From: Anaerolineales bacterium UBA3082
GTDB taxonomy: Bacteria; Chloroflexota; Anaerolineae; UBA7937
Direction of reading: 5' to 3'
Assembly (NCBI GenBank): GCA_002366595.1
Contig: DFBK01000011.1
Span: 13,540 to 77,539 of the forward strand
Length of the DNA stretch: 64,000 nucleotides
The position numbers and the translations under genes were made by a program. Shown in pieces: positions 25,128-47,366 of the stretch. The notes beneath the pieces are model-generated. The model was not told the origin of the DNA. It was given only the letters and a program-made list of their open reading frames with translations, and did not search any database. Position 1 is the first letter of the stretch; every line of letters starts with the position of its first letter.

Positions 25128-26543
25128 CTAGTACGCTCCCTTTTGTTTCAGTACGGCTCCGATAGTCATGCATAGGATTTGGATGTCGAGAAGGAGAGAC
25201 CAATGTTGGATATAGTAGAGATCGTCCTCAGTGTGAAGATGCATAGGTCTATCGCTTCGCCCGTGGACCTGCCACCAGCCGGTGATCCCCTGGGGCACAG
25301 AAAAGCGTTTTAGTTGCCACTGCTCGTAGCGATCCACCAGCCAGGGCATCTCGGGACGGGGACCCACCAGGCTCATCTCGCCTTTGAGGACATTGAAAAG
25401 CTGGGGCAATTCGTCTAGGCTCATGCGTCGCAGAAACCGGCCCAGTCGTGTGACTCGGGGATCGTTCTCCACCTTATGGATGATCTCGCCATCCTCAGTT
25501 TGGGTGAGTACCTCGTCGAGGCGTTCCTCGGCGTCGGGGACCATAGTGCGGAATTTGTACATCTGGAAGGGTTTACAGTTCTCGCCCACTCGCTCTTGCT
25601 TGAAGATCGCTGGCCCCTTGGAGCCAAGTTTGATGAGAAGGGCTATCAAGGCTATCAAGGGGGCAAGAAAAAGGATCAATATGGTCGCCACTATCAGATC
25701 GAAGGCTCGTTTCACCACCCTCTGGTAACCATTGATGGCTGGCTCGCGCAGATTGATCAGGGGTAGACCACCGAAATGTTCAGTCGTGGCTTGGAAAAAG
25801 GCTAGGTCGAAGAAATCGGGGACCACTCTCACATTCACCGGCAGCCTTTGAAGGTCAATGACTAGGTTCACCAACTTGCGATGGGCCCGCAGCGGGAGAG
25901 CAAAGACCACTTCATCCACTTTATGCTCTTTCACCACCCGACACGTATTCCCCAACCCCCCTAAAATGGGCAGATCTGCACAGATCTTCTCCTGCTTTGG
26001 GGCTTCGTCATCAAGGAAGCCGATCAATCTTAAACCGGCCTCTCGACCTTCCTTCATAATCCGGCCTACCTTACGGCCCGCCTTGCCCGCCCCGATGATC
26101 AGAACCCTCGTAGTTCCGTACCTTCGTCCCACCGCAACTCTGAATATCAGGCGCAAAAAGAGCCGGAAGATGAGGAGAAGAGCCAAGTCGATGGCCACGA
26201 AGTAGACGAAGAGCAAACGAGATAGGTCGCGATAGGAGAGATAGAGGGCCCCTGCAAGGGCAAAACTGGCCATCGAGACGGCTACTGGGATGATCCGGAG
26301 TTCGTCAACCGCCTTGAGAACTCGCACGTTATTATAGACGGATAGGAGAACAAAGGTCAAGAGCCAGATGGCCAGGGCTAAGCCGTAGATTTGAGGGCCT
26401 AGTCGGGTGCCCTCAGGAAGCAAAGGCTTCCCCCAGGGGAGATGCCTGCGAGCCAGGCAGGCTAGATAGAGGGATAGTTGGGTCAAGGCGAGATCGCAGG
26501 CAACCAGGAAGATGACGAAGTTAACGCTGGCCCTTCTGGGCAT
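25128..26543 (-). CDS. Polyprenyl-phosphate sugar-1-phosphate transferase, large WbaP/EpsB-type initiating phosphoglycosyltransferase
   Basis: N-terminal 4-5 TM helices and a central Rossmann-like 'VLIIGAGKAGRKVGR'. The C-terminal Bac_transf domain reads 'KRAFDLIVATILILFLAPLIALIALLIKLGSKGPAIFKQERVGENCKPFQMYKFRTM...DELPQLFNVLKGEMSLVGPRP'. Confidence 0.9.
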   Translation of the reverse strand: MPRRASVNFVIFLVACDLALTQLSLYLACLARRHLPWGKPLLPEGTRLGPQIYGLALAIWLLTFVLLSVYNNVRVLKAVDELRIIPVAVSMASFALAGALYLSYRDLSRLLFVYFVAIDLALLLIFRLFLRLIFRVAVGRRYGTTRVLIIGAGKAGRKVGRIMKEGREAGLRLIGFLDDEAPKQEKICADLPILGGLGNTCRVVKEHKVDEVVFALPLRAHRKLVNLVIDLQRLPVNVRVVPDFFDLAFFQATTEHFGGLPLINLREPAINGYQRVVKRAFDLIVATILILFLAPLIALIALLIKLGSKGPAIFKQERVGENCKPFQMYKFRTMVPDAEERLDEVLTQTEDGEIIHKVENDPRVTRLGRFLRRMSLDELPQLFNVLKGEMSLVGPRPEMPWLVDRYEQWQLKRFSVPQGITGWWQVHGRSDRPMHLHTEDDLYYIQHWSLLLDIQILCMTIGAVLKQKGAY

Positions 26544-31582: not shown

Positions 31583-31853
31583 CTATGTCAGGCGAGGATC
31601 CCATAGAAAAGGGGTGATATTCTGGGTTTGCGGTTGGTAGAGGCGTCTACCAGACTTGGTTGGTGGGCCATGCTTCGGATGCTTGCTTCTCCGGCCCCCG
31701 GCCTGGCAAGTACCGGGGCAGGTGGGACAGGCTGTCATCCACCACCAGGATTCCGTATTTTTCCCAGGCAGGGATTGATCGGCCAAGGCCCTCAAGCAGT
31801 GGGCCAGTGTCGATGCGGCGTCGTAGGCCGGGATCACTACCTAGGCAATTCAT
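31583..31853 (-). pseudogene. Remnant of a GT2 (polyprenyl-phosphate glycosyltransferase-like) gene, frameshifted and truncated
   Basis: One frame reads '(V/M)IPAYDAASTLAHCLRALADQSLP', the GT2 N-terminal consensus. The following GT2 segment 'WEKYGILVVDDSLSH' is in a different frame (ORF 31647-31853), and no GT2 body follows. The GTG start overlaps the stop of the upstream flippase-like gene (GTGA at 31837), so the pair was originally translationally coupled. Confidence 0.65.
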
Positions 31854-32883
31854 CCGCCTTTTGCCATCTCACCTCCTCGGTTGGCTTGCCATGGGCCTCC
31901 GGCCCCGCTAATCGAAAGAGCTGATAGCCGGCCTTCCAGGTGAAGAGCCCACCCAGCACCATCATGGGCAGGTAGACTATTAGGTGAAGCACTACCGTAT
32001 AGGCCAAGGCTGTCCCGCTCTCTATCCCGATAGTCGTGAGGGTGAGATAGCCAAGGTAGTGGAATACCCCCACCCGTCCTGGCGAGGTGGGTATCGCCAC
32101 TCCTACCTGGAGAACCACTAGGAGGAGCAGGGAACTCCACCAGGGTGCAACGATCCCCATACTGGAGAGAACCAACCAGTTAGTAGAGGCAGCCACAGCC
32201 CAGATCCCTGCTGACAACCCCAGTGACCAAACGACCACCCTCCAAGAGCCCAAAGAATCCACCCCTTCCAAAGCCACCATCACCTTCTGAAGAAGGCTTT
32301 TGACCAAAGAGTAGGGGGTCAACGCGCTCAGTCTATGCAAGCAGCTTGTTACCCATTCACGATTTCGGGCGGTGAGGAGAAGAGCGACGGAGAGGGCAAG
32401 CAAAATGGCAGCCGCTGCCAGTTCCCAACGACTCAGCCAAGATGGGAGAGAGATCACTGCCAAGAGCAAGGCGACCGAAATAAGGAGCATGATGGCCTCT
32501 AGGGTCTTCTCCACGACGATAGTCACCAGAGCCGAGGCCTTGCTGCGCTCTTCCAACTCACCCACCAGGTAGGCTCTAGCTAACTCCCCAACCCTCACCG
32601 GCAAAGCTGCATTGAGTGCCATTCCCACCAGCAAAATGCGAAAGAGTTGCCAACAACCAAGATCCCCCTGTCGTGGGTAAAAGAGCCACTTCCAGCGGTA
32701 AGCCTTCCCGGCGAGAGTGAGCAGGACCGAAAGAAAAGCCAAAAGCAACCAACCCGGCTGCACACTGGCAGCCGCCTGAGCTACTTGTTTCATATCAACA
32801 TCGCGAAGGGCGATTAAGAGCAAGAGCGCACCCAAAAGCGATCCCAAGGCTAGGCGGATGCCCATCGAGACTCTCTGGCCCAT
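31837..32883 (-). CDS. Flippase-like polytopic membrane protein (LPG-synthase-TM / UPF0104 family-like)
   Basis: 348 aa with ~8 TM helices. The N-terminus 'LALGSLLGALLLLIALRDVDMKQVAQAAASVQPGWLLLAFLSVLLTLAGKAYRWKWLF' is typical of this family, which is frequently paired with GT2 genes. Confidence 0.65.
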   Translation of the reverse strand: MGQRVSMGIRLALGSLLGALLLLIALRDVDMKQVAQAAASVQPGWLLLAFLSVLLTLAGKAYRWKWLFYPRQGDLGCWQLFRILLVGMALNAALPVRVGELARAYLVGELEERSKASALVTIVVEKTLEAIMLLISVALLLAVISLPSWLSRWELAAAAILLALSVALLLTARNREWVTSCLHRLSALTPYSLVKSLLQKVMVALEGVDSLGSWRVVVWSLGLSAGIWAVAASTNWLVLSSMGIVAPWWSSLLLLVVLQVGVAIPTSPGRVGVFHYLGYLTLTTIGIESGTALAYTVVLHLIVYLPMMVLGGLFTWKAGYQLFRLAGPEAHGKPTEEVRWQKADELPR

Positions 32884-32884
32884 A

Positions 32885-34237
32885 TCACTCGCCTCCCGTA
32901 TCCCGGGCGGGGGTTGGCGATGGAGCCGACCTCGCCTGAAGGTTATAGAGGGCGGCCATCAGGCCCAGCATAATCCAGAGAATAAAGCCTGGTGGGGCAC
33001 CGAGCTTTATGGCATCGGTGAGTCCATAAACCTGATGGGCGAGCATCCCTGAGAAAAGTCCCACGGTCAGTAGACGAATAGAACGACTCTGGCTGCCCCG
33101 GTAGACCCGCCAAGCGCAGACGCAGAAAGTGGTGAGCAGGGCTAGGTAGGCTACGAGGCCGGGGATGCCCAGATCTACCGCTACTTGCAAGAAATTGTTG
33201 TGGGCGTGAGGCACCTTGGCGTTGGGGCCGGATAGGAAATATGGATACAGGGCATCACCCACATAAGGGAACATGTTCAGACCGATCCCGGTGTAGGGAA
33301 AGTCCTGGATCATGTATAGGGCTCGCTGCCAGACCTCAAACCTGCCCACGGCGGTGCCTGTCACGTCCAGCATCAGCATCGAGTCGAGAAAACTCTCCGC
33401 ACCAACCGACCAGGCTCGAGCCAAAGCGCTCACCGCCAGCGAGGGCACTGAGAGCAGAAACCAGCGGTTGCGGGAGATAGCCAACACGATCAGGCCGCTG
33501 GCCACCCCTATGTAGGCACTTCTGGACTGAGTCAGGATCAACACCCCAGCCGTGAGAATGAGGGAGAGGGTCGCCAGGAGCGAGGAGGTCTTGCGAGACA
33601 AGAGCAGCCTCGCCCACGCTTTCCATCCCCCACGCTTCACGGCAGGGGTAGTCACCAGAGCGATCCCGGGATTGGAACCCCAAACTGCCAGGCAGGTAGC
33701 CAAGGAGAGGGGCAGCACCAGGGCTAAAGCGCCGCCCACCTGGTTGGGGTGAAACCCACCACCGGGCGAACTGGTGATGTTGTGGATCAGCCGTGGCAAC
33801 CGCCCATATATGGGGCCGAGGGGGAGAACCTTGTGAGCGATCCAATCGGTGCCTATCAATGACAAGCAGGAGATCCCCACACCAAAGGCGATAAGCAGCG
33901 CCGCCCAGCCCCAGACCCCTCTGGCGCTCTCGGCACTATTCACTACGCCGTAGAAGAAGGCCACCCCCAAGACAATGCCTAGTAACTTGGGCAGGCTCAC
34001 TTCTGGCAGGGCTGAGGCCCAAAGGCTAACCGGGAGCATCAGCAGCAGGCAAAGGATGGGAATATCCATGGGGGTGCGGACCGTGGGACGGCCGATCGCT
34101 CTCCAACGGGCCAGCCAAGGGAGGAGGAGGATGAGCAAAGCCGGCACGCTGAGAGTCGAGGGGAACAAGAGGAATGGCGCCGCCACTAGGAGACACGCTA
34201 TCTCTAGTTCATTCAGTCGCTGAGCGATCACTCTCAC
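32885..34237 (-). CDS. O-antigen ligase / Wzy_C-domain membrane protein (polymerase, ligase or O-oligosaccharyltransferase-like)
   Basis: ~12 TM helices. A periplasmic loop carries the Wzy_C signature 'HAHNNFLQVAVDLGIPGLVAYLALL' (H-x-H-N-x-[FY]-L...G-x-x-G). Confidence 0.75.
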   Translation of the reverse strand: MRVIAQRLNELEIACLLVAAPFLLFPSTLSVPALLILLLPWLARWRAIGRPTVRTPMDIPILCLLLMLPVSLWASALPEVSLPKLLGIVLGVAFFYGVVNSAESARGVWGWAALLIAFGVGISCLSLIGTDWIAHKVLPLGPIYGRLPRLIHNITSSPGGGFHPNQVGGALALVLPLSLATCLAVWGSNPGIALVTTPAVKRGGWKAWARLLLSRKTSSLLATLSLILTAGVLILTQSRSAYIGVASGLIVLAISRNRWFLLSVPSLAVSALARAWSVGAESFLDSMLMLDVTGTAVGRFEVWQRALYMIQDFPYTGIGLNMFPYVGDALYPYFLSGPNAKVPHAHNNFLQVAVDLGIPGLVAYLALLTTFCVCAWRVYRGSQSRSIRLLTVGLFSGMLAHQVYGLTDAIKLGAPPGFILWIMLGLMAALYNLQARSAPSPTPARDTGGE

Positions 34238-34289: not shown

Positions 34290-36293
34290 TCAACTTCCTC
34301 TGTAGTAGTAAAACGAGACCTTGCTGGGGCTCACTTTGTTGAGAACGACACCTAAGATGTTGCTGCCAACTGTAGCCAACCTCTCACCGGCAATGCGTGT
34401 GGCTTCTCGTTGGGTTCTGCCCGCTTCGACTGTCAGCAAGACTCCGTCCACATGCTTGCCCAGAACATCCGCATCAGTCACAGCCAGGATCGCTGGGCTG
34501 TCGAAAAGGACAAGGTCGGCTTTGCTTTTGAGTTCCTCGACCAACGTTTCAATACGAGCCGATTGCAGCAACTCCGACGGGTTGGGAGGCAGAGGCCCGC
34601 TAGTGATGAGCCTGAGGTTCTTGACTTCTGTCTCTCGGAGATACCGGTCTAGATCCGGGTGGTCTTCTAGCAGGAAGTCGCTCAGTCCCTTGTCATTGGG
34701 CAGACCGAAGAGGGTGTGCAGGACGGGGCGTCTGAGGTCCGAGTCCACGAGAATGACTGAACTATTCCCTTGTGCCAGAACTACGGCAAGGTTAGCCGCG
34801 ATGGTGCTTTTCCCTTCCATGGCCGTGGGACTTGCTATCAGAAAAGTGCTCGGCGTGTCCTCAATGGCGGCTTCAAGTCGGGTGCGCAACATGCGGAAAC
34901 TTTCGGCAGCAGGGGAAAGGGGATCCCTGAGAGCGACGGGTTGAGTTTCGCTCTTTGCTTCGAAGGTCACAATTGAACCCAGTGTCGGCAGTCCAACCGC
35001 TTGAGTTACATCCTCCGCAGTGGTGATTGATTGGTCAAGGTACTCGAGGGTGAAGACCGCACCCATGGCCAACATGGCACCCACAACCGAGCCCAGGAGG
35101 GTGTTGAGCCTCTTGCGAGGGCGGATGGGGCTTTCGGGCTCCGTAGCAGCCACTGCGAAGCGAACCAGAGTCTCCTCTGTTTGGCCGGCCATCTGCACCT
35201 CTGCCACCTTCCGTGCTATCATCTGGTAGGTCTCCCAGCCCAGATCCCTAGCGCTGGTGAGGTCGCGTTCCCTAGCGCGCTCCTGCTCCAGTTGCTCCTG
35301 CAATTGAAGGATCTCCTGCTGGAGAGAGCCTTCATCGATAAGTGCTAGGACTTGTTCCAGCCTAATTTCCAGATTCGCGATGAGTGTATCAAGTTCGGAA
35401 AGCTGCTGGGCTGGGTCCTCTGTGATCTCGGTCTGCTGATCCAGCAAGACTTGAAGCTCAACCTGCTGACCGGGCGAAACTTGAGGCGCAACGAGTAGGC
35501 CAGAGGACAGCGTCGAGGCTCTTGCTCTTAAGAGCAGGAGTGCTAGACTATTCCTCCCCGTGGTGGAAGAGGGGACACCTTCCCCCAAGCTCTCTCGAAG
35601 GGTCTTGGCGTCAGCGAGCAGGCGGTCCAAGGCCCGTTGAGCCGCGTAGTAGTCGTCCAGGGTAGCCTCCTTGGCACTTATTTCGTTGGTCAGAGTGGCG
35701 ATCTGGTTGTTCCCCAGGAACTCAGTTAGGGCTGCCTCTGCCTCTTGGTAGTCGCCTAGTGCCTCGTCTACCTGAATCTGAAGGCCAGCAGGTGACTGGG
35801 TAGTTCCAACATATAGGCTGTTGACATAGCCTTCATAGGCATGCGCCCAGGCATTGGCAATAGTTGTGGCCTTCTCTGGGGAGTCCGCTTCGACCAGGAT
35901 CCTGATTAGGTCCCCGTCCAGTTTTGCCTCTACCATCCCGAGAAGCATCCCTGCTTCACCCTCCTCAGGCTCTAAGATGGAGCCGATCTCCCCGATTACC
36001 TGCGAGCCTATGGTGCTGTTGGTAACTAGGGCGGTGAGGGCCTTCCGGCGTTCCTGCATGTTTATGATTGGCGCTACATCTTCTTCAGTCAAGGTCCTGT
36101 ACCGGGGCTCAAGGACGATCTCCGATCCTGACCTGACGATCAGCACCCCCGCCTCAGCCTGGTATATGGGGGGCGTCAGGAAGCTGACAACAAGGGCTGT
36201 CGCGCCAGCCAGAAAGGTACCCAGCACGATCAGCCATAACCACCTGCGGATTACAGCCAAATACTGCCTTAGTTCTATACCCTCATATTCCAT
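34290..36293 (-). CDS. wzc: Polysaccharide co-polymerase / tyrosine autokinase (Wzc/EpsB-like, PCP2b)
   Basis: N-terminal Wzz-like region with a TM ('LWLIVLGTFLAGATALVVSFL'), a long coiled-coil periplasmic segment and a second TM. The C-terminal P-loop domain has Walker A 'SPTAMEGKSTIAANLAVVLA', Walker B-like 'VILVDSDLRRP' and the C-terminal Tyr cluster 'SFYYYRGS'. Confidence 0.85.
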   Translation of the reverse strand: MEYEGIELRQYLAVIRRWLWLIVLGTFLAGATALVVSFLTPPIYQAEAGVLIVRSGSEIVLEPRYRTLTEEDVAPIINMQERRKALTALVTNSTIGSQVIGEIGSILEPEEGEAGMLLGMVEAKLDGDLIRILVEADSPEKATTIANAWAHAYEGYVNSLYVGTTQSPAGLQIQVDEALGDYQEAEAALTEFLGNNQIATLTNEISAKEATLDDYYAAQRALDRLLADAKTLRESLGEGVPSSTTGRNSLALLLLRARASTLSSGLLVAPQVSPGQQVELQVLLDQQTEITEDPAQQLSELDTLIANLEIRLEQVLALIDEGSLQQEILQLQEQLEQERARERDLTSARDLGWETYQMIARKVAEVQMAGQTEETLVRFAVAATEPESPIRPRKRLNTLLGSVVGAMLAMGAVFTLEYLDQSITTAEDVTQAVGLPTLGSIVTFEAKSETQPVALRDPLSPAAESFRMLRTRLEAAIEDTPSTFLIASPTAMEGKSTIAANLAVVLAQGNSSVILVDSDLRRPVLHTLFGLPNDKGLSDFLLEDHPDLDRYLRETEVKNLRLITSGPLPPNPSELLQSARIETLVEELKSKADLVLFDSPAILAVTDADVLGKHVDGVLLTVEAGRTQREATRIAGERLATVGSNILGVVLNKVSPSKVSFYYYRGS

Positions 36294-36314
36294 TTTTCCT
36301 CCAATAACGCCTGC

Positions 36315-36590
36315 TTATTCTATTTTTTCTGCTTGGTTAGTGGCCGATCTTTCTTCCTGCGGTATGGTTCTTAGTCTCACTGACAGGCCTGCCAACTCGG
36401 CCGCCCATTGCTTAATCGATTCTAGGTTTTTTGGGTTCGGTTTGGCCTCGTATTCGCGGGTGAGTTCTGCCAACACCTCGGCGATCCTCCTGATCCTCCT
36501 CAGGAGTTCCAGGTCAGCGTTGGTCAAGATAGAACTGGTCATTTGCACCTTAACTACCTCCTTCGGTGCTCCCGTCTTCGTGGTATTCAA
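36315..36590 (-). CDS. Hypothetical small helical protein (91 aa)
   Basis: ORF immediately upstream of wzc in the same orientation. Predicted all-helical ('ADLELLRRIRRIAEVLAELTREYEAK'). No recognisable motif. Confidence 0.4.
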   Translation of the reverse strand: MNTTKTGAPKEVVKVQMTSSILTNADLELLRRIRRIAEVLAELTREYEAKPNPKNLESIKQWAAELAGLSVRLRTIPQEERSATNQAEKIE

Positions 36591-36848
36591 CGGATACGCT
36601 TTCTGGTCAGAAGCTGCAACAGGCGATGCCTTCTACGATGACCGATATAGGTATGCCACCCATGGTTAGGTAACATCTGGAGCAGCCCCGCCCCTGGGCC
36701 ACGCTCGCAAGTGGGCTCCCTGGGGGAGCGATCCTCGGTGTCAAGGTTCTCGCTATGAAAGCCCTCTTTGTCCAGCGACTCCTGCTGCTTCACTACGACT
36801 ATCACCTTTCCTGGAGATCAAGACATAACGCCTTGCTACAGGGCTCTC

Positions 36849-38024
36849 TCATCTTGATGCCTTCCTGTTGAGCAAGGAGTTGGCGACGAGGAGCAGAAGC
36901 CGCGGTTGGGTTAGAGCGAGTTTAAAGAAGGCGTTCTTGAACACGTCTCTATTGTGGGTGGCCAGAAGATTCCTGGTTCTCGTGTTCAGCAACTCCAACA
37001 ATCGGTCGTAATCGCGGTCACCGAACCTATTCAAAACGGCCCGCATCAGAGAGTGAAGGTCGAGTTCCGCCTTCAGACCTCGAACCGTCCTTCGGTAAGG
37101 TGCTTGTCCCACTATGGCCCTGACCGCTGCCCTGGCGCCTCTTAAGCCAGCAACGACTCCTCCCACCGTCGTGGCCTTGACTTGTCCTCCAGCGTCCCCG
37201 ATGAGGAGGATCCTGGAATTCGAGATGGCGCGTGATGGTTTCAGTAGAGGATCGTGTAGAGGGACCTGAGCGGCTTGAAACTCGAGGGTTTCACACCCTT
37301 GTGAAGATAGAAAGCCCTCCAGATTATCCCTAACCCCCTTACCGTTCCTGGAGATCAGGCCTATGACTGCTCTGGCCTCTGATTCCGGGATAAGCCAGTA
37401 GAAGAACTCGGTTCGCTCTCTATCAAACCATACCTTTACGGAATCTGCTGAGGCTTGGTTGGGCAATACCACCTTCGCTTGAGCGATGGTTACCGTCTCC
37501 CTGGAGTCTCTTGAGGCAGCCTTGGCCACATTGCTAAGGACGCCGTCAGCCCCTATGAGCACGTTGGTGGTGATGGTGTACTGTCTGCCCTGGACAACGT
37601 TCTCCAAGGAAAGGAGTAACTTGTTCCCTTCGTCCTCAAAACCCAAGAAACGGAAGCCTGGGTATATTTTGGCGCCTTCCTCGGCGGCTTTCCTAGCCAA
37701 CAACTCGATGAGTCTCTGCCTTTCAATTACTAGGTCGGGCTCTTGTAGTGCCACCCAGGAGTGTCGGTGGGCAGAAATCAGCTCCATTCTATTGACCTTG
37801 TTTAAGATAGCCTCAGGCGGGACGAAGCCTAGAACTTCACTCAACTTGCTGGTGACGATCAGTGTCCTAGGAGGCTGGCCTAGACCTTCGTGCACATCAT
37901 ATAGTTGAACCGGGATGCGCTCTTTGGCCAGAAGATAGGCTGCAAATAAACCCGCGGTAGAAGCACCGACGATGACAACGTTATTTTGGTCCATTGGAAC
38001 TCTCATACCCTTCGCTGGTGACAT
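36849..38024 (-). CDS. FAD-dependent oxidoreductase, geranylgeranyl reductase (GGR/ChlP) family
   Basis: N-terminal FAD dinucleotide-binding 'NVVIVGASTAGLFAAYLLAK...QLYD', plus the GGR-family C-terminal motif 'ILLIGDAGGQVKATTVGGVVAGL' (GDAAG-x(n)-TGGG-like). Confidence 0.75.
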   Translation of the reverse strand: MSPAKGMRVPMDQNNVVIVGASTAGLFAAYLLAKERIPVQLYDVHEGLGQPPRTLIVTSKLSEVLGFVPPEAILNKVNRMELISAHRHSWVALQEPDLVIERQRLIELLARKAAEEGAKIYPGFRFLGFEDEGNKLLLSLENVVQGRQYTITTNVLIGADGVLSNVAKAASRDSRETVTIAQAKVVLPNQASADSVKVWFDRERTEFFYWLIPESEARAVIGLISRNGKGVRDNLEGFLSSQGCETLEFQAAQVPLHDPLLKPSRAISNSRILLIGDAGGQVKATTVGGVVAGLRGARAAVRAIVGQAPYRRTVRGLKAELDLHSLMRAVLNRFGDRDYDRLLELLNTRTRNLLATHNRDVFKNAFFKLALTQPRLLLLVANSLLNRKASR

Positions 38025-38086
38025 CTGAAATCGGTATCTGCTTCAAATAGCCATTCGACCATACCAGAGATGTTACTATCCCCAGG

Positions 38087-38377
38087 CTAGACCTGTCTCT
38101 TCTTCTCGCCCGCTTGTTCAGTGCCTTCTTGGCGCGGGGAAGAGAAGCCCGCCAGGCTACTGAGGGCCATGGCTATGCCGCCCGCAACACAGATAGCCAG
38201 AGCGAGGTAGGGCCTAGTTCCCACGAAGGCGATGGCGAGCAAGGAAAATAGAATCCATAAAGAAAGGGGCTCCAAAATCGTGATTAGAGATTTCATCGCC
38301 CTTCCATAGCAAGACTGGGTATCAAGCCTTCTGGGCCGAAAGTTCTTCTTCCACAAGTATGCCCTTGCGGAAGTCAA
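38087..38377 (-). CDS. Hypothetical small membrane protein (96 aa)
   Basis: Two hydrophobic helices ('LSLWILFSLLAIAFV', 'LALAICVAGGIAMALSSLAGF'). It overlaps the transaldolase 3' end by ~56 bp, so its coding status is uncertain. Confidence 0.3.
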   Translation of the reverse strand: MTSARAYLWKKNFRPRRLDTQSCYGRAMKSLITILEPLSLWILFSLLAIAFVGTRPYLALAICVAGGIAMALSSLAGFSSPRQEGTEQAGEKKRQV

Positions 38378-39101
38378 CTATCCCTCTGAGACGGTATCCT
38401 GCCTGCTGAGCATCGTTGTAGAACATCTTCACTGTATCCAGCGAGTACTCGTGCAGATCTTTACCAACCAAGGGTAACTTTCTCAGAATGTCGTGAGTGA
38501 CAGTGATGATGTGACACCCGACAGCATCGGCCTGGAATATATTGAGCAATTCACGGGGACTGGCCCAGATCAACTCAAGGTTTGGATACGGGCGCAGTAG
38601 TTGCACGGCTGCTGCCATCAAGGGCACGGGATCATGTCCGGTATCCGCAACACGCCCAGCGAAGACCGAAACAAAGCAGGATGGCCCTTCAGCAAGACAC
38701 TGGCTGATGTCCCGCACTTGATCCAATGTCATCATTGCCGTCACGTTCAATTTCACGCCAGCACGTGCCAACCTGCGCACCAGATCACAAGACGACTGAC
38801 CATGGGTGTTGGTGATGGGAATCTTGACATAGACGTTTTCGCCCCACGAGGAAATCTCTAACGCCTGACGTTCCATCTCGTCAAACTCGTCGGAGAAAAC
38901 CTCGAAGGAAATGGGGCGGTCAGGGATGGTGGCAGTGATTTCTTGGGCGAAGGCGCGATAGTCACTGACCTCCGCTTTGCGCATCAGAGTGGGATTCGTA
39001 GTGAATCCCTTGATCAGAGGGTTGCGATACAGTTCGAGCATGCCGGCCTTGTCGGCCCCGTCGGCGAAGATCTTGATGCTCAGATCGGCTAACCTTTTCA
39101 T
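38322..39101 (-). CDS. Transaldolase / fructose-6-phosphate aldolase family protein (TalC/Fsa-like)
   Basis: 'MKRLADLSIKIFADGADKAGMLELYRNPLIKGFTTNPTLMRKA' matches the Fsa/TalC N-terminal consensus (FaDgA...GvTTNP.L). Start taken at the internal Met (39101) that abuts the gmhB stop; the longest ORF extends to 39146. Confidence 0.75.
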   Translation of the reverse strand: MKRLADLSIKIFADGADKAGMLELYRNPLIKGFTTNPTLMRKAEVSDYRAFAQEITATIPDRPISFEVFSDEFDEMERQALEISSWGENVYVKIPITNTHGQSSCDLVRRLARAGVKLNVTAMMTLDQVRDISQCLAEGPSCFVSVFAGRVADTGHDPVPLMAAAVQLLRPYPNLELIWASPRELLNIFQADAVGCHIITVTHDILRKLPLVGKDLHEYSLDTVKMFYNDAQQAGYRLRGIVDFRKGILVEEELSAQKA

Positions 39102-39652
39102 CCTTTTTCCTCCTGCGCAGGCTGTGTGCGGCGCTGCAAAACCCAACCAACCGCTTCAATGAGTGAGCCAACCCGATGATCTGGGTTGTCCGGCTGTCTC
39201 TCTCTGTAACCATGGTCCACGAAGACGGTTTTGCACCCGGCGCGCTGCCCGGCTTCAATGTCTTTCCAGCGATCTCCCACCATGAAGCTGGCAGACAGAT
39301 CGATCTCCCAATCCTGTGCAGCCTCAAGTAGCAGGCCGGGCTCTGGCTTGCGACATGGGCAGTGGTCCGCATCGTCGTGATAACATACCCGCATGTCATC
39401 CAATGGCAGTCGTTTGCGCAGTACCTGATTCATCGCCTCTACGACTTCACGACGCTGAGTGCCCCGGGCTACACCTGGCTGGTTCGTCACAACGATGAGC
39501 AGGAAACCCGCTTCGTGTAATGAAGTGCAGGCCTCAACCACACCAGGCAGAATCTTCAGTTCGGCTAGGCTGCTAGGGGAATAGGGCCTGCCCTTCCGCG
39601 CAATGGCACGATTCAATACGCCATCCCGATCGAGAAAAACGGCCTGGTGCAT
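39098..39652 (-). CDS. gmhB: D-glycero-D-manno-heptose 1,7-bisphosphate phosphatase (HAD family, GmhB-like)
   Basis: HAD motif I 'AVFLDRDGVLN', motif II 'LIVVTNQ', and the GmhB-typical Cys-rich Zn-binding loop 'CYHDDADHCPCRKP' followed by 'GDRWKDIEAG'. Confidence 0.8.
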   Translation of the reverse strand: MHQAVFLDRDGVLNRAIARKGRPYSPSSLAELKILPGVVEACTSLHEAGFLLIVVTNQPGVARGTQRREVVEAMNQVLRKRLPLDDMRVCYHDDADHCPCRKPEPGLLLEAAQDWEIDLSASFMVGDRWKDIEAGQRAGCKTVFVDHGYRERQPDNPDHRVGSLIEAVGWVLQRRTQPAQEEKG

Positions 39653-39655
39653 GGT

Positions 39656-40249
39656 TCAGCTCACTGATTCCCACTTCATCGGCGACATTTGCAAAGCCGG
39701 ATGGGAAACCAGCAGGTGCCAGATCAGGGCCTGGAAGGACTCGGTATGGGGAGTGATGGTTTCCGGGTTCACTGGGGGGATGACCGCGCAGGCGTTGGCG
39801 ACCTGAGCAGTGTAACCACCGTCCCGGCCCACCACGCCGCAAATAGACGCTCCCACCTCCCGGGCGTATTGCAGGGCGCGCACCAGGTTGGGACTGATGT
39901 TATGCTCCAGGTCCCCGCCGCCGACCGAGAAGACAAAGATCATATCATTGCCGTTTAGGCGGCTCCCCTTCAGCCAGTTGACAAAGACCGATTCCCAGCC
40001 GTCGTCGTTGACCCGGGCGGTCAGTTCGGACACGTTGTCGGTGGGCGTGTAGGCCTCTATACCGACGATCTTTCGGAAGTCGTTCACAGCGTGGGAGGCA
40101 TGGCCAGCGCCGCCGACGCCCAGGAAGAAAAGCCGGCCGCCACGCTCACGAAGGGCGACCAGGAGATTAATCATCCTGTCAATGGCCTCCACGTCCAGAT
40201 TGCCCAGGATCTGGGATGCTTCTGACAGGTAATCTGTTGTGTATGACAT
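39656..40249 (-). CDS. gmhA: Sedoheptulose-7-phosphate isomerase (SIS domain, GmhA)
   Basis: 'GGRLFFLGVGGAGHASHAVNDF' and 'NDMIFVFSVGGG' are SIS-domain phosphosugar-binding motifs. The size (197 aa) matches GmhA. Confidence 0.85.
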   Translation of the reverse strand: MSYTTDYLSEASQILGNLDVEAIDRMINLLVALRERGGRLFFLGVGGAGHASHAVNDFRKIVGIEAYTPTDNVSELTARVNDDGWESVFVNWLKGSRLNGNDMIFVFSVGGGDLEHNISPNLVRALQYAREVGASICGVVGRDGGYTAQVANACAVIPPVNPETITPHTESFQALIWHLLVSHPALQMSPMKWESVS

Positions 40250-40384
40250 GCTTATCTCTACGACATTCTATGAGCCCGTAGCGAGCGGTGCTTGAGTGAC
40301 GAGTCGAAAGCCGCTTGGTCTGGTTTCGACAAGTTCAACCCAAGGGATGTGTCGCTTCGTCCCCTTCGGCAGGATCGGGCGACA

Positions 40385-41374
40385 TTAGAAATTCACCAGC
40401 ACCTTGGCGCCCTCGAAGTCGAAGTCGAAGGGCATCTCGCGGAGGCCCTCAGCAGCCATCGCTTGGCGCAGCCGGACTTTGTGATTATTGGGACAGTAGA
40501 ACATGAAGAAACCACCGCCGCCTGCTCCCATGATCTTGCCCCCCAAGGCGCCATTCTCCTTGGCGATATCGTACCAGCGGTCGATCTCCGGATGGCTGAT
40601 CTTGCCCGAGCGACGCTTCTTGTTCTGCCAATGCTCATCCAGCAAGAGGCCAAATCGCTCTAGATCGCCCTTCTTTAGCGCTTCCTTGATCCGGTACCCC
40701 AATTCCTTGGTACGATGCAGACTGTCAACTACGGCGGTGTCACCACGTTGCGTATCAACCTCCTGATCCTGTAGAATGTCCCGGCTGTGCCGGATGATAC
40801 CGGTGTAGAAGAGGAGGATGCAGTTGCGTAACTCCTCCATCGTGCTCCTGGAGATGCTTAGAGGACTGACGTGGACCGTGCCATCGGGGTCGATATCTAG
40901 ACAGGTGATGCCACCGAAAGCCGCCAGGTAGTGATCGTGTTTGCCTACGGGGTGGTGGGCTAGGTTCATCTCGATATGACAGGCTTGCTCGGCTAGGACT
41001 GGGGTCGGCACCTGCTCACGTTTGAAGGCATAGAGTGCGGTCAGGAGAGCGACGAGATAGCTCCCCGATGAGCCCAGGCCAGTGCCAGCTGGGACATCAG
41101 CCATGGAGACGATCTCCAAAGAGGTGTTGAGGTTGAGAAGCTTCAGCGTTGGGCGTACCAGGTCATGTTGGATGTCATCAACGCGGCTTACCTCCTCATA
41201 TCGGGAGTACTTGATCCGCAGCAGATTGTCGGCAGCCGGACGATTGGTATATACGTAAACGTACTTGTTAATGGCACCGCTGAGGATGAATCCGCCGTAG
41301 TGAGAATAATAAGAGGGCAGGTCAGTTCCACCCCCTCCCAGCGAGATCCGTAAGGGCGCTCTGGTTAAGATCAT
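40385..41374 (-). CDS. hddA: GHMP-family sugar kinase, D-glycero-alpha-D-manno-heptose 7-phosphate kinase (HddA-like)
   Basis: N-terminal 'ILTRAPLRISLGGGGTDL' and GHMP motif 2 'PAGTGLGSSGSYLVALLTAL'. It lies adjacent to gmhA, gmhB and the nucleotidyltransferase. Confidence 0.8.
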   Translation of the reverse strand: MILTRAPLRISLGGGGTDLPSYYSHYGGFILSGAINKYVYVYTNRPAADNLLRIKYSRYEEVSRVDDIQHDLVRPTLKLLNLNTSLEIVSMADVPAGTGLGSSGSYLVALLTALYAFKREQVPTPVLAEQACHIEMNLAHHPVGKHDHYLAAFGGITCLDIDPDGTVHVSPLSISRSTMEELRNCILLFYTGIIRHSRDILQDQEVDTQRGDTAVVDSLHRTKELGYRIKEALKKGDLERFGLLLDEHWQNKKRRSGKISHPEIDRWYDIAKENGALGGKIMGAGGGGFFMFYCPNNHKVRLRQAMAAEGLREMPFDFDFEGAKVLVNF

Positions 41375-41375
41375 G

Positions 41376-42089
41376 TCACTCTCCCTTCTCCCAGATGGCT
41401 TTCACCCGCTGCAGATCCTCCGGTGTATCAATCCACCAGAGATCTTCGCCTTGGGACATCCGATAGCCATATATCGCTTCTCCACGAGCCAGCAAAGATG
41501 GGAATAGATCATGACCGAAGTCAGATGGCGTACCGTCCGGGATGGCATCCAATACCTCTGGCTCTAGTACGAGGATCCCTGCGCTGACCCAGCCGCTGAA
41601 TACTTGGTGAGACTTCGGTTTCTCCACAAACCGGGTGATCCGGTCCTGGTCATCTAGATCAGCGATACCGCTGGCGATGGGGTCATCCCGATGGTAAAGT
41701 GCGATGGTGGCGATACCGCCCTTAGCCAGGTGGAAGACGACAAGCCGGTTCAAGTCACAAGTGGTCAGGTTATCGCCGTAGAGAACGAGGAAGGTGCTGT
41801 CGAACTGCTCTCGCACTCTTCTCACGGCCCCAGCCGTGCCAAGAAGTTCCGGTTCAAAGGAGTAGGTGATATGCACGCCCCAGCGTGAGCCATCGCCAAA
41901 GTGCTCAACGATCGTTTGAGGATGGTGGTGAAGGTTTATCACTGCCTCGCGAATGCCGTGGCGCGCGAGCAACTCCAGATTGTGTTCTAGAATAGGCTTG
42001 TCCCTTACGAGAACCATCGGTTTGGGGATGTGCTCGGTGAGAGGGCGGAGGCGAGTGCCCTGGCCCGCCGCCAGGATCATAGTCTTCAT
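41376..42089 (-). CDS. hddC: Sugar-1-phosphate nucleotidyltransferase, D-glycero-alpha-D-manno-heptose 1-phosphate guanylyltransferase (HddC-like)
   Basis: 'MKTMILAAGQGTRLRPLTEHIPKPMV' is the NTP-transferase signature G-x-G-T-R-L. A short 237-aa form as in HddC, with a 1-bp gap to hddA. Confidence 0.8.
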   Translation of the reverse strand: MKTMILAAGQGTRLRPLTEHIPKPMVLVRDKPILEHNLELLARHGIREAVINLHHHPQTIVEHFGDGSRWGVHITYSFEPELLGTAGAVRRVREQFDSTFLVLYGDNLTTCDLNRLVVFHLAKGGIATIALYHRDDPIASGIADLDDQDRITRFVEKPKSHQVFSGWVSAGILVLEPEVLDAIPDGTPSDFGHDLFPSLLARGEAIYGYRMSQGEDLWWIDTPEDLQRVKAIWEKGE

Positions 42090-46700: not shown

Positions 46701-47366
46701 CTAATAGTTGCTGCCCGACAGCACATACCAAGCCGCACCGAAGAGGAGTTTGATATCAAGCCAGAGGGACCAGTTATCAATGTACTCCAGGTCAAGTTTG
46801 ATCCACTCTTTGAACTCTTTGGGCTTGCCTCGGACGTGCCAGAGGCAAATCATGCCGGGGGTGACGCTGAGTTTGCGCCGTTGCCACTCTTCAAAATGTT
46901 CCCACTCCGCAGGACCGACTGGGCGGGGGCCGACTAGGCTCATGTCGCCTTTGAGGACGCTCCAGAGTTGGGGCAGTTCATCCAGGCTGAACTTGCGTAA
47001 GACGCGGCCCACGGGCGTAACCCGCGGGTCATTTTTTAGTTTGAAGGTGGGGCCGTTCCTCTCGTTGTATTGCCAGAGGTCTTTCTTCAGTCCGTCGGCG
47101 TTGACGACCATGGTACGGAGTTTGTAGCCGGTGAATCTTTTGCCGCCTTTTCCAATCACAACCCATTGATAGAGAACAGGACCAGGTGAGGTAATCTTGA
47201 TAACTGCGCCGATAGCGAGCAGAAGCGGAGTTAAGATAACCAACGACATGGCAGAAATACCCACATCAAGTATCCGTTTCACACCCAATTGCCATCGAGA
47301 AGCAAGCAGACGTGTCTGACCAAGATGCCTCAGGGGCATTTTCTCTGGAGACACATCATGCAGCAT
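46701..47366 (-). CDS. Small monotopic phosphoglycosyltransferase (PglC/WcaJ-C-terminal-like sugar transferase, Bac_transf)
   Basis: 'KRILDVGISAMSLVILTPLLLAIGAVIKITSPGPVLYQWVVIGKGGKRFTGYKLRTMVVNAD...DELPQLWSVLKGDMSLVGPRP' is the complete Bac_transf signature in a 221-aa protein. Confidence 0.9.
   Translation of the reverse strand: MLHDVSPEKMPLRHLGQTRLLASRWQLGVKRILDVGISAMSLVILTPLLLAIGAVIKITSPGPVLYQWVVIGKGGKRFTGYKLRTMVVNADGLKKDLWQYNERNGPTFKLKNDPRVTPVGRVLRKFSLDELPQLWSVLKGDMSLVGPRPVGPAEWEHFEEWQRRKLSVTPGMICLWHVRGKPKEFKEWIKLDLEYIDNWSLWLDIKLLFGAAWYVLSGSNY

What the first reader, a model, noticed from the sequence alone, without database searches (positions are those of the whole stretch)
36849..38024. 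Geranylgeranyl-reductase-family flavoenzyme inside a glycosylation locus: possible saturated polyprenol carrier
The ORF has the FAD-binding GxGxxG and the GGR-type 'GDAGG...TTVGG' motif, and it sits between wzc and the heptose cassette on the same strand. GGR homologues reduce isoprene units of polyprenols, including archaeal dolichol. Bacterial glycan carriers are normally fully unsaturated undecaprenyl phosphate. A dedicated reductase here would imply a partly saturated polyprenyl-phosphate carrier, which is rare in bacteria and potentially significant for the GT-C enzymes in the cluster.
Basis: inference. Interest (0 to 1): 0.65.

Follow-up and report, generated by a model that had tools for sequence, protein, structure and literature searches.

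The report
Carrier-lipid reductase-like flavoenzyme in glycan locus
This gene belongs to a large, uncharacterised bacterial family related to the enzymes that hydrogenate isoprenoid chains, and in many phyla it sits directly behind the enzyme that loads the first sugar onto the lipid carrier, so it probably modifies (most likely partly saturates) that carrier, although it lacks a cysteine that known relatives need for catalysis.

Summary
The ORF is real: 36849-38024, minus strand, 391 aa. The likely true start is 37994, giving 381 aa. It lies between a Wzc-like kinase and a divergent heptose cassette in a 64-kb, one-strand glycan locus.

- It scores below the curated family cutoff.
- It has an invariant Thr where GGRs have their active-site Cys. 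That Cys is reported essential in the Sulfolobus enzyme.

It defines a distinct family found in at least 571 species genomes, mainly Acidobacteriota and Chloroflexota.

The key result concerns gene order. In 43 of 79 loci with upstream DNA, the gene directly upstream on the same strand is an initiating phosphoglycosyl transferase: 30 WecA-type and 13 WbaP/PglC-type. These two enzyme superfamilies are unrelated and share only the polyprenyl-phosphate substrate. The transferase class switches several times along the family tree.

E. coli CbrA is a distant GGR-like protein reported to saturate the alpha-isoprene of undecaprenyl phosphate, which gives a precedent.

The parts
36849..38024 (-). Maximal ORF (391 aa) of the GGR-like flavoprotein. 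The probable CDS is 36849-37994 (381 aa, start MDQNN).
37950..37967 (-). GASTAG: dinucleotide-binding loop with Ser in place of the second Gly (GxSxxG).
   Evidence: Coordinates. G10, S12 and G15 are invariant in 34 relatives.
37851..37868 (-). RTLIVT: invariant segment that aligns with the 'RCGEG' segment of Thermoplasma GGR. Thr replaces the active-site Cys.
   Evidence: HMMER alignment to 3oz2. MAFFT alignment with TaGGR. No conserved Cys anywhere in 86 family members. Role of the Cys from PMC6309074 and PMC10821996.
37533..37550 (-). ADGVLS: 'DG' FAD-binding motif shared by GGRs and PHBH-fold flavoenzymes.
   Evidence: D150, G151 and S154 are invariant. Coordinates.
37380..37406 (-). FFYWLIPES: counterpart of the GGR catalytic-cavity motif YxWxFP. 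Here it reads F-x-W-L-I-P, followed after 8 residues by G-L-I.
   Evidence: F198, W200, L201, P203, E204 and S205 are invariant. It aligns with TaGGR YIWVFPKGE. Motif definition from PMC6309074.
37158..37208 (-). LLIGDAGGQVKATTVGG: LxGD FAD motif plus the counterpart of the GGR 'GGG' motif (here VGG), with an invariant Lys.
   Evidence: G266, D267, A268, V272, K273, T276, G278 and G279 are invariant. It aligns with TaGGR LVGDAARLIDPITGGG.
36867..36929 (-). C-terminal pair of moderately hydrophobic helices broken at an invariant Pro (FFKLALTQPRLLLLVANSLLN). It may contact the membrane surface; this is inference only.
   Evidence: AF2 helices 352-362 and 365-379. P364 is invariant. Hydropathy shows no transmembrane segment.
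38087..38296 (-). Small ORF directly upstream (about 68 aa from ATG 38296, with two hydrophobic stretches). It is conserved in the same position in a 69%-identical relative.
   Evidence: ORF. tblastn gives 62% identity over 68 aa at L001/L002 9539-9742, directly upstream of their homologue. No Pfam or NCBIfam hit.
34290..36293 (-). Wzc-like chain-length determinant and tyrosine autokinase, the next gene downstream.
   Evidence: Pfam Wzz, GNVR and CbiA. TIGR01007, 177.7 bits, above cutoff. Wzc is also adjacent to the homologue in L089, L090 and L003.
38322..42089 (-). Upstream cassette: transaldolase, GmhB-like phosphatase, weak GmhA-like SIS protein, HddA-like GHMP kinase and a sugar-1-P nucleotidyltransferase. 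This is a putative NDP-heptose pathway.
   Evidence: Pfam. NCBIfam: transaldolase above cutoff; HddA, GmhA, GmhB and HddC models hit but below cutoffs.
46701..47366 (-). Small monotopic phosphoglycosyl transferase (Bac_transf). It is the nearest initiating enzyme upstream on the same strand, 8.7 kb away.
   Evidence: PF02397 E=6.8e-59. EPS_sugtrans, WbaP and WcaJ models. Distance.
25128..26543 (-). Second, large phosphoglycosyl transferase (CoA_binding_3 + Bac_transf) further downstream in the same locus.
   Evidence: Pfam.
31837..34237 (-). Flippase-like (LPG_synthase_TM) membrane protein and a Wzy_C polymerase/ligase-like protein downstream of Wzc.
   Evidence: Pfam. TIGR00374. The same pair occurs in relative L090.

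Best explanation
The gene encodes an FAD-binding enzyme of the geranylgeranyl-reductase superfamily. It belongs to a distinct, widespread and so far uncharacterised bacterial family. That family works on the polyprenyl-phosphate carrier lipid of envelope-glycan assembly, or on the polyprenyl-diphosphate-sugar made from it.

The most likely chemistry is hydrogenation of one or more isoprene C=C bonds of the carrier. This would give a partly saturated, dolichol-like polyprenyl phosphate that the co-transcribed glycan pathway uses.

Shown here: the fold, the family membership limits, and the conserved gene order with initiating transferases.

Inferred: that the substrate is the lipid, that the reaction is a reduction, and which isoprene unit is affected. 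The electron donor is unknown.

For: 2. Motifs. GGR cavity and FAD motifs are kept in recognisable form: F-x-W-x-I-P, LxGD and VGG.

3. Gene order. Of 79 non-redundant loci with at least 900 bp upstream, 43 have an initiating phosphoglycosyl transferase directly upstream on the same strand: 30 PF00953 WecA type and 13 PF02397 WbaP/PglC type. Another 18 have one upstream on the same strand within 10 kb. Every transferase found is upstream and co-oriented. For other same-strand gene pairs in the same loci the rate is 3 of 414. The two transferase superfamilies are unrelated in fold and share only the polyprenyl-phosphate acceptor (established knowledge; PMC10541605 abstract).

4. Independence. 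The transferase class directly upstream switches several times along the family tree and across phyla.

5. Other neighbours. DUF218 proteins recur downstream in 20 loci. This is the ElyC/SanA family, which is linked to undecaprenyl-phosphate and lipid II supply (PMC3879167, PMC12176290).

6. Precedent. E. coli CbrA, a GGR-like FAD protein, saturates the alpha-isoprene of C55-P, lipid I and lipid II (PMC8469651). It is a distant homologue of this family (hhalign probability 94%, E=9e-8). Haloferax GGR reduces dolichol phosphate (PMC10821996).

7. Anaerobes. The family occurs in MAGs assigned to lineages known as anaerobes (Syntrophaceae, Syntrophorhabdus, Desulfobacteraceae; many Anaerolineae are too). 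This argues against O2-dependent chemistry.
Against: - The active-site Cys is replaced by an invariant Thr, and no Cys is conserved anywhere in the family. That Cys is present in all GGRs shown to be active and is reported essential in the Sulfolobus enzyme (PMC6309074; PMC10821996).
- The second Gly of GxGxxG is an invariant Ser.
- The N-terminal 'PRTLI' segment resembles group A flavoprotein monooxygenases.
- The score is below the curated GGR family cutoff.
- In 18 of 79 loci no transferase was found within the DNA held. In the window itself the nearest transferase is 8.7 kb away.
- Many of the 80 genome loci are related Acidobacteriota, so the counts are not independent events.
- No conserved ferredoxin or other electron donor was seen nearby.
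- There is no lipid analysis of any organism that carries the family.
Confidence: 0.5

Rival explanations
1. It is an oxygen-dependent flavoprotein monooxygenase, epoxidase or halogenase that modifies the polyprenyl chain or a glycan component rather than reducing a double bond. An example would be squalene-epoxidase-like epoxidation of an isoprene unit.
Against: The GD motif lacks the monooxygenase signature and instead follows the GGR pattern GDAxx....T.GG. The top sequence and fold matches are GGRs by a clear margin. The family occurs in MAGs of lineages known as obligate anaerobes, such as Syntrophaceae, Syntrophorhabdus and Desulfobacteraceae.
Confidence: 0.12
2. It is a redox tailoring enzyme for the first sugar, acting on the polyprenyl-diphosphate-sugar or on the nucleotide sugar. 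On this view the adjacency to the initiating transferase reflects the sugar, not the lipid.
For: The loci are rich in sugar-modifying enzymes: epimerases/dehydratases, UDP-glucose dehydrogenase, carbamoyltransferases and amidotransferases. There is a precedent for an FAD enzyme acting on a lipid-linked sugar in DprE1 (own knowledge).
Against: The partner transferases belong to two unrelated superfamilies that typically transfer different sugar phosphates. The lipid acceptor is therefore the common factor, not the sugar. No known sugar oxidoreductase has the GGR fold as its closest match. The other neighbouring genes differ widely between phyla.
Confidence: 0.12
3. It has lost catalysis, or it acts as an electron-transfer, regulatory or scaffolding partner of the initiating transferase. 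It would be FixC-like or a pseudo-enzyme rather than a lipid-modifying enzyme.
Against: About 60 positions are invariant across 46-90% identical sequences. They include all FAD-contact motifs and the substrate-cavity motif, which is typical of an active enzyme. No FixX, ETF or ferredoxin partner is conserved nearby.
Confidence: 0.08
4. It is an ordinary isoprenoid reductase for another lipid (menaquinone side chain, carotenoid, ether lipid or chlorophyll tail), and its place in the glycan locus is coincidental.
For: All characterised GGR-family enzymes reduce isoprenoid chains of such molecules (PMC6309074; PMC12004948; PMC6166724).
Against: Scores against the ChlP, BchP and archaeal DGGGPL reductase models are far below the cutoffs. 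No quinone, carotenoid or ether-lipid genes appear among the recurrent neighbours. The glycan context is conserved across many phyla.
Confidence: 0.05

Closest known systems
Archaeal geranylgeranyl reductases: Thermoplasma acidophilum Ta0516 (PDB 3oz2) and Sulfolobus acidocaldarius GGR (PDB 3atq/4opc)
   Different: Only 17-18% identity. GxSxxG instead of GxGxxG. Thr instead of the active-site Cys. The proline of the '...DPITGGG' loop is replaced by 'KxTTVGG' with an invariant Lys. Bacterial, and found in glycan loci rather than in lipid-biosynthesis contexts.
E. coli CbrA (b3690), colicin M resistance protein
   Same: A bacterial GGR-superfamily FAD protein whose reported substrate is the glycan carrier lipid itself: it saturates the alpha-isoprene of C55-P, lipid I and lipid II (PMC8469651). 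It is homologous to this family (hhalign probability 94%, E=9e-8). It is the best functional analogue for the proposed role.
   Different: 22% identity. The query scores 25 bits against the CbrA model, whose cutoff is 303. CbrA keeps GxGxxG and the Cys (KPCGG) and lacks the Pro of the cavity motif. It is a stand-alone gene between yidR and dgoT, not in a glycan operon.
Haloferax volcanii GGR (HVO_1799) acting on dolichol phosphate
   Same: A GGR-family enzyme needed for saturation of dolichol phosphate isoprene units, i.e. a glycan carrier lipid (PMC5088576; PMC10821996).
   Different: It is the general archaeal membrane-lipid GGR and also saturates diether lipids. It has the canonical Cys ('conserved throughout all archaeal GGRs').
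Other bacterial GGR homologues with non-classical substrates: sterol C-24 reductase Bsr of Myxococcota, CruI of green sulfur bacteria, MenJ of mycobacteria
   Same: They show that GGR-family enzymes in bacteria have been recruited to reduce C=C bonds of various isoprenoid-derived lipids (PMC12004948; PMC6166724).
   Different: Bsr is stated to keep YxWxFP and the Cys. None is reported in operons with phosphoglycosyl transferases. The MenJ comparison rests on my own knowledge and was not tested here.

Membership tests
Geranylgeranyl reductase family (TIGR02032 / canonical GGR) | Whole-protein score above the curated family cutoff | tested here: not met
   129.9-130.1 bits against a cutoff of 158.8. 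The model is covered end to end, E=1.5e-37.
Geranylgeranyl reductase family (TIGR02032 / canonical GGR) | Three-domain PHBH-type FAD fold closest to solved GGRs | tested here: met
Geranylgeranyl reductase family (TIGR02032 / canonical GGR) | GxGxxG dinucleotide-binding motif | tested here: not met
   The sequence is GASTAG. Ser12 is invariant in 34 of 34 relatives. The Rossmann beta-alpha-beta is still predicted.
Geranylgeranyl reductase family (TIGR02032 / canonical GGR) | Active-site cysteine behind the flavin (Cys47 in SaGGR, Cys45 in TaGGR). It is present in all GGRs shown to be active and is reported essential in SaGGR. | tested here: not met
   An invariant Thr aligns with the TaGGR Cys. 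No column of the 86-member alignment has Cys in more than 42% of sequences. Definition from PMC6309074 and PMC10821996.
Geranylgeranyl reductase family (TIGR02032 / canonical GGR) | YxWxFP(x7-8)GxG catalytic-cavity motif | tested here: inconclusive
   The family has F-Y-W-L-I-P, then 8 residues, then G-L-I. F, W and P are invariant; Tyr is replaced by Phe, Phe by Ile, and the last Gly by Ile. The same last-Gly change is reported for the bacterial ScGGR.
Geranylgeranyl reductase family (TIGR02032 / canonical GGR) | LxGD FAD motif and GGG motif | tested here: inconclusive
   LxGD is present (L-I-G-D; G266 and D267 invariant). GGG is V-G-G with both Gly invariant. Non-archaeal GGRs are also reported to vary here, as GEG or REG.
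Geranylgeranyl reductase family (TIGR02032 / canonical GGR) | FAD-dependent hydrogenation of isoprenoid C=C bonds | not testable with these tools
   This needs enzyme assays or lipid mass spectrometry.
CbrA (NF008519 / PRK11445), undecaprenyl-phosphate alpha-isoprene saturase | Equivalog-level sequence membership | tested here: not met
   25 bits against a cutoff of 303; only residues 134-301 match. 22% identity, hhalign E=9e-8. Homologous but a different family.
CbrA (NF008519 / PRK11445), undecaprenyl-phosphate alpha-isoprene saturase | Saturation of C55-P and its derivatives, giving colicin M resistance | not testable with these tools
   The function is known from PMC8469651. It could be tested by expressing the gene in E. 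coli.
ChlP/BchP geranylgeranyl-(bacterio)chlorophyll/GGPP reductases | Score above the TIGR02023 or TIGR02028 cutoff | tested here: not met
   84 bits against 343, and 43 bits against 505.
Archaeal digeranylgeranylglycerophospholipid reductase (NF041080) | Score above the equivalog cutoff | tested here: not met
   50.5 bits against 580. The label 'digeranylgeranylglycerophospholipid reductase' that JGI gives to relatives is therefore an over-annotation.
Group A flavoprotein monooxygenases (PHBH type) | GD motif GDAAH...P..G.G.N, and oxygen-dependent lifestyle of hosts | tested here: not met
   The motif is GDAGGQVKATTVGG, without His or Asn. Monooxygenase matches are local only, at 45 bits or less. 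The family is present in MAGs of lineages known as obligate anaerobes.

The most novel reading that the evidence does not exclude
A large, undescribed family of Cys-less GGR-like flavoenzymes is the dedicated partner of initiating phosphoglycosyl transferases of both superfamilies. It is present in hundreds of species of Acidobacteriota, Chloroflexota, Desulfobacterota, Methylomirabilota, Gemmatimonadota and others. It makes a pathway-specific, partly saturated (dolichol-like) polyprenyl-phosphate carrier. If so, saturated glycan carriers are common in major environmental bacterial phyla, and they may insulate exopolysaccharide synthesis from the shared undecaprenyl-phosphate pool. The enzyme would also do this with a catalytic mechanism that differs from canonical GGRs.
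Probability: 0.4. Interest if true: 0.78.

Novelty: new variant of a known kind. Interest (0 to 1): 0.62.

Why it matters
Textbooks state that bacterial glycan carriers are fully unsaturated polyprenyl phosphates, and that saturation is an archaeal and eukaryotic trait (PMC5088576). The only bacterial enzyme I found reported to saturate the carrier is E. coli CbrA, which is treated as a colicin-resistance curiosity.

A widespread family built into exopolysaccharide operons next to the carrier-loading enzyme would mean several things:
- Carrier saturation would be a regular, pathway-linked feature in abundant soil and sediment phyla.
- It would bear on how pathways compete for the limited carrier pool.
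- It would bear on the substrate specificity of phosphoglycosyl transferases, Wzy polymerases and GT-C enzymes.
- It would bear on resistance to lipid II-cleaving bacteriocins.
- It would bear on the evolutionary story of dolichol versus bactoprenol.

The missing catalytic Cys also makes the family a useful natural test of the GGR mechanism. The hypothesis is directly testable by expressing the gene in E. coli.

Tried and rejected
- Promoter and terminator scan of 36200-38500. It found nothing above the shuffled expectation.
- Foldseek against afdb50. The library was not available.
- Primary papers on CbrA (PMC7648152, PMC3430330) and on Haloferax HVO_1799 (PMC3340491). None is held. CbrA and HVO_1799 are therefore cited through reviews.
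- Literature searches for a GGR-like gene in exopolysaccharide or phosphoglycosyl-transferase neighbourhoods, and for dihydro-polyprenyl carriers in bacteria. Nothing relevant was found. This is not proof of absence, because subscription papers are not searched.
- Test of whether the WecA-type partners look archaeal or eukaryotic (dolichol-using). They best match the bacterial WecA model, below its cutoff, so this gives no extra hint.
- Test of whether the LssY_C neighbour carries a PAP2 phosphatase domain. No hit.
- Test for a transmembrane anchor in the protein. None was found; there is only a moderately hydrophobic C-terminal helix pair.
- Fusion proteins among the top 150 cluster representatives. 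A few are longer (up to 641 aa), but they match in several pieces and I did not analyse them further.
- Menaquinone, chlorophyll or ether-lipid reductase assignment. Rejected on model scores and on context.
- A full phylogeny with all characterised GGRs. Only TaGGR (reconstructed) and CbrA were included.
Full report
**1. The observation**

The ORF exists as described: 36849..38024 on the minus strand, 391 aa. Most close homologues are 381 aa, and they begin at the equivalent of the internal Met, MDQNN. ATG 37994 is preceded by GAGAG, whereas ATG 38024 has no such signal. The real protein is therefore probably 381 aa (36849-37994).

The 'GDAGG...TTVGG' string is present at 37158-37208. The claimed GxGxxG is not. 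The loop reads GASTAG, and the Ser is invariant in all 34 aligned relatives.

All called genes lie on the minus strand.
- Downstream is a Wzz + tyrosine-autokinase (Wzc-like) gene at 34290-36293.
- Upstream are a transaldolase, a GmhB-like phosphatase, a weak GmhA-like SIS protein, an HddA-like GHMP kinase and a sugar-1-phosphate nucleotidyltransferase.
- Only the transaldolase passes its curated cutoff, so 'heptose cassette' is plausible rather than shown.

The whole 64-kb window is one glycan locus. It holds two Bac_transf phosphoglycosyl transferases, many GT4 and GT2 enzymes, two Wzy_C proteins, a Wzx-like protein, Wzm/Wzt, a flippase-like protein, a carbamoyltransferase and three weak PMT_2-like (GT-C) proteins.

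**2. What the protein is**

- Pfam sees only a generic FAD_binding_3 domain.
- The best NCBIfam model is the geranylgeranyl reductase family, TIGR02032: E=1.5e-37 with the model covered end to end. The 129.9 bits are below the curated cutoff of 158.8.
- The chlorophyll (ChlP/BchP), archaeal lipid (DGGGPL reductase) and CbrA models are hit far below their cutoffs. The same holds for all 34 aligned relatives.
- A profile of the family finds one full-length match in the PDB, Thermoplasma GGR 3oz2 (E=2e-14). Matches to monooxygenases are local.
- The AlphaFold model is confident: pLDDT 88.5, pTM 0.89.

So the protein is GGR-like in sequence and fold.

**3. It is not a canonical GGR**

The literature defines active GGRs by four features (PMC6309074; PMC10821996):
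- GxGxxG;
- an active-site Cys behind the flavin, present in every GGR shown to be active and described as essential in the Sulfolobus enzyme;
- YxWxFP(x7-8)GxG;
- a GGG motif.

The family compares as follows:
- It has GxSxxG.
- It has an invariant 'RTLIVT' in which Thr aligns with the Cys of TaGGR 'RCGEG'.
- It has no conserved Cys anywhere.
- It has F-x-W-L-I-P, then 8 residues, then G-L-I.
- It has V-G-G.
- LxGD and the DG motif are kept.

About 60 positions are invariant across sequences that are only 46-90% identical to the query. That pattern fits an active enzyme rather than a decaying one. The N-terminal 'PRTLIVTSKLSEVL' segment resembles the 'PRAHLLNQRTGEIF' segment of group A monooxygenases.

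**4. Size and spread of the family**

- The first search gave 628 hits. Most carry no source name; the few named ones are mainly Chloroflexota or Anaerolineae MAGs.
The phyla are Chloroflexota, Acidobacteriota, Desulfobacterota, Methylomirabilota, Gemmatimonadota, Dormibacterota and some Patescibacteria bins.
- An exhaustive profile search found 602 clusters (50% identity level) at E<=1e-30.
- A search with an acidobacterial member returned 4436 hits at E<=1e-30, all from metagenomes or MAGs.
- Source names are generic: 'NAD(P)/FAD-dependent oxidoreductase' and 'flavin-dependent dehydrogenase'. Some carry the automatic label 'digeranylgeranylglycerophospholipid reductase'.
- In a neighbour-joining tree the family is monophyletic with respect to TaGGR and E. 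coli CbrA.

**5. Genomic context, the main new evidence**

In six metagenomic contigs carrying 47-69% identical homologues, the gene is always inside a glycan locus. In four of these it lies directly downstream of a Bac_transf phosphoglycosyl transferase.

I then analysed 87 non-redundant loci: 80 species genomes, 6 metagenome contigs and the window. I used my own ORF calls, HMMs built from the loci, and Pfam checks of cluster representatives. Of the 79 loci with at least 900 bp of upstream DNA:

| Situation | Loci |
|---|---|
| Initiating transferase directly upstream, same strand: PF00953 (WecA/MraY, polytopic) | 30 |
| Initiating transferase directly upstream, same strand: PF02397 (WbaP/PglC, monotopic) | 13 |
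| Transferase further upstream on the same strand, within 10 kb | 18 |
| No transferase in the DNA held | 18 |

- Every transferase found is upstream and co-oriented.
- For other same-strand neighbouring gene pairs in the same loci, the upstream gene is such a transferase in only 3 of 414 cases.
- The nominal binomial p-value is about 3e-70. It ignores shared ancestry and should be read only as 'very large effect'.
- The transferase class switches several times along the family tree and across phyla. The coupling is therefore not one inherited operon.
- The two transferase superfamilies are unrelated in fold and mechanism. They share only the polyprenyl-phosphate acceptor (established knowledge; PMC10541605 abstract).
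- The remaining neighbours differ between lineages. Acidobacteriota show AsnB - carbamoyltransferase - GT4 - epimerase - WecA - [this gene] - carbamoyltransferase - DUF218 - UDP-glucose dehydrogenase. Binatia-like loci show GT2 - Bac_transf - [this gene] - methyltransferase - PqqD - AsnB.
- DUF218 recurs downstream in 20 loci. This is the ElyC/SanA family, which is linked to undecaprenyl-phosphate and lipid II supply (PMC3879167, PMC12176290). The pairing persists in a subset of loci that lack any transferase.
- In the query's own clade the order is looser. Wzc is the direct neighbour in the window, L089 and L090. L090 has Bac_transf - Wzc - [this gene].
- In the window the nearest same-strand transferase is 8.7 kb upstream, with the heptose and sugar-nucleotide genes in between.

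**6. Mechanism**

The constant partner is the enzyme that uses polyprenyl phosphate. The protein's nearest characterised relatives all hydrogenate C=C bonds of isoprenoid chains, including phosphate-bearing ones. The simplest reading is that this enzyme acts on the carrier lipid, or on the first lipid-linked intermediate, and most probably saturates one or more isoprene units.

A direct bacterial precedent exists. E. coli CbrA is a GGR-like FAD protein that saturates the alpha-isoprene of C55-P, lipid I and lipid II and thereby blocks colicin M (PMC8469651). CbrA is a distant homologue (hhalign probability 94%, E=9e-8, 22% identity). It keeps GxGxxG and the Cys, and it is a stand-alone gene. 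In Haloferax the GGR is needed for saturated dolichol phosphate.

The presence of the family in MAGs assigned to lineages known as anaerobes (Syntrophaceae, Syntrophorhabdus, Desulfobacteraceae; many Anaerolineae are too) argues against oxygen-dependent chemistry (established physiology).

Three things remain inferred:
- that the lipid, rather than the sugar, is the substrate;
- that the reaction is a reduction, despite the missing Cys;
- the position reduced and the electron donor.

I put about 0.5 on the carrier-saturation model. The remainder is spread over monooxygenase-type modification, sugar tailoring, a non-catalytic or electron-transfer role, and an unrelated isoprenoid reductase.

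**7. Novelty and verdict**

The concept is known: a GGR-superfamily enzyme saturating a glycan carrier occurs in CbrA and in archaeal GGR.

I did not find the following described in the searchable literature:
- a distinct, very widespread, Cys-less family;
- its operonic coupling to initiating transferases of both superfamilies.

I rate it a new variant of a known kind, with interest 0.62. Its refutation criterion was tested and came out in its favour. One motif claim is wrong, a defining catalytic residue is missing, and no lipid data exist.

Noticed in passing
window 1-64000: All called genes of at least 150-180 aa lie on the minus strand and form one very large glycan locus. It holds two Bac_transf initiating transferases (25128-26543 and 46701-47366), two Wzy_C proteins, a Wzx-like protein (61695-63074), a Wzm/Wzt ABC exporter (29231-30040 and 17934-19175), a GH5-like hydrolase, a carbamoyltransferase and several methyltransferases. 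This suggests at least two assembly pathways side by side.
   Followed up: partly
window 38087-38296: A small ORF of about 68 aa with two hydrophobic stretches lies directly upstream of the flavoprotein gene. It is 62% identical to an ORF in the same position in relatives L001/L002 (9539-9742). A partial match sits elsewhere in L090, and it was not found in more distant loci. It might be a small membrane partner.
   Followed up: partly
window 36587-36848; L001 14998-15172: The 174 bases just downstream of the flavoprotein stop codon are 80% identical to a stretch of L001. That stretch spans the start of an unannotated 225-aa gene about 4 kb from the L001 homologue. The 72-aa ORF in the window may be a truncated remnant of that gene.
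   Followed up: partly
L025, L033, L051, L056, L063, L070, L076, L078 and others: Many Acidobacteriota share a conserved operon: asparagine-synthase-like amidotransferase - carbamoyltransferase - GT4 - epimerase - WecA-like transferase - this flavoprotein - second carbamoyltransferase - DUF218 - UDP-glucose dehydrogenase. I did not come across a description of the glycan it makes.
   Followed up: partly
L044, L054, L059, L060, L071: In a subset of acidobacterial loci the flavoprotein is followed by DUF218, an unannotated 297-aa protein on the opposite strand and an LssY_C protein. An ETF-quinone oxidoreductase lies upstream on the opposite strand, and no phosphoglycosyl transferase occurs within 10 kb. 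The pairing with DUF218 therefore survives without the glycan genes.
   Followed up: partly
L005 and L006 (downstream of the homologue): In Binatia-like loci the Bac_transf - flavoprotein pair is followed by a P-loop-like 342-aa protein, a PrmA-like methyltransferase, NTP_transf_5, PqqD, Transglut_core3 and asparagine-synthase homologues. This set resembles lasso-peptide or RiPP maturation genes embedded in a glycan locus.
   Followed up: no
window 38322-42089: The putative NDP-heptose genes are very divergent. HddA-like scores 168 bits against a cutoff of 600, GmhA-like 36 against 320, and HddC-like 93 against 300. Only the staphylococcal-type transaldolase passes its cutoff, with 340 against 282. 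The sugar actually made could be something other than glycero-manno-heptose.
   Followed up: partly
L019, L020: Two bins labelled Patescibacteria/Saccharimonadales carry the typical acidobacterial operon around the homologue, on contigs of 63-158 kb. This could be horizontal transfer or mis-binning.
   Followed up: no
L089 7490-8013: In a 74%-identical relative, a Fic/MazE-antitoxin-like pair on the opposite strand sits between Wzc and the flavoprotein gene. This is the position where the window has two small unannotated ORFs (36315-36805).
   Followed up: no
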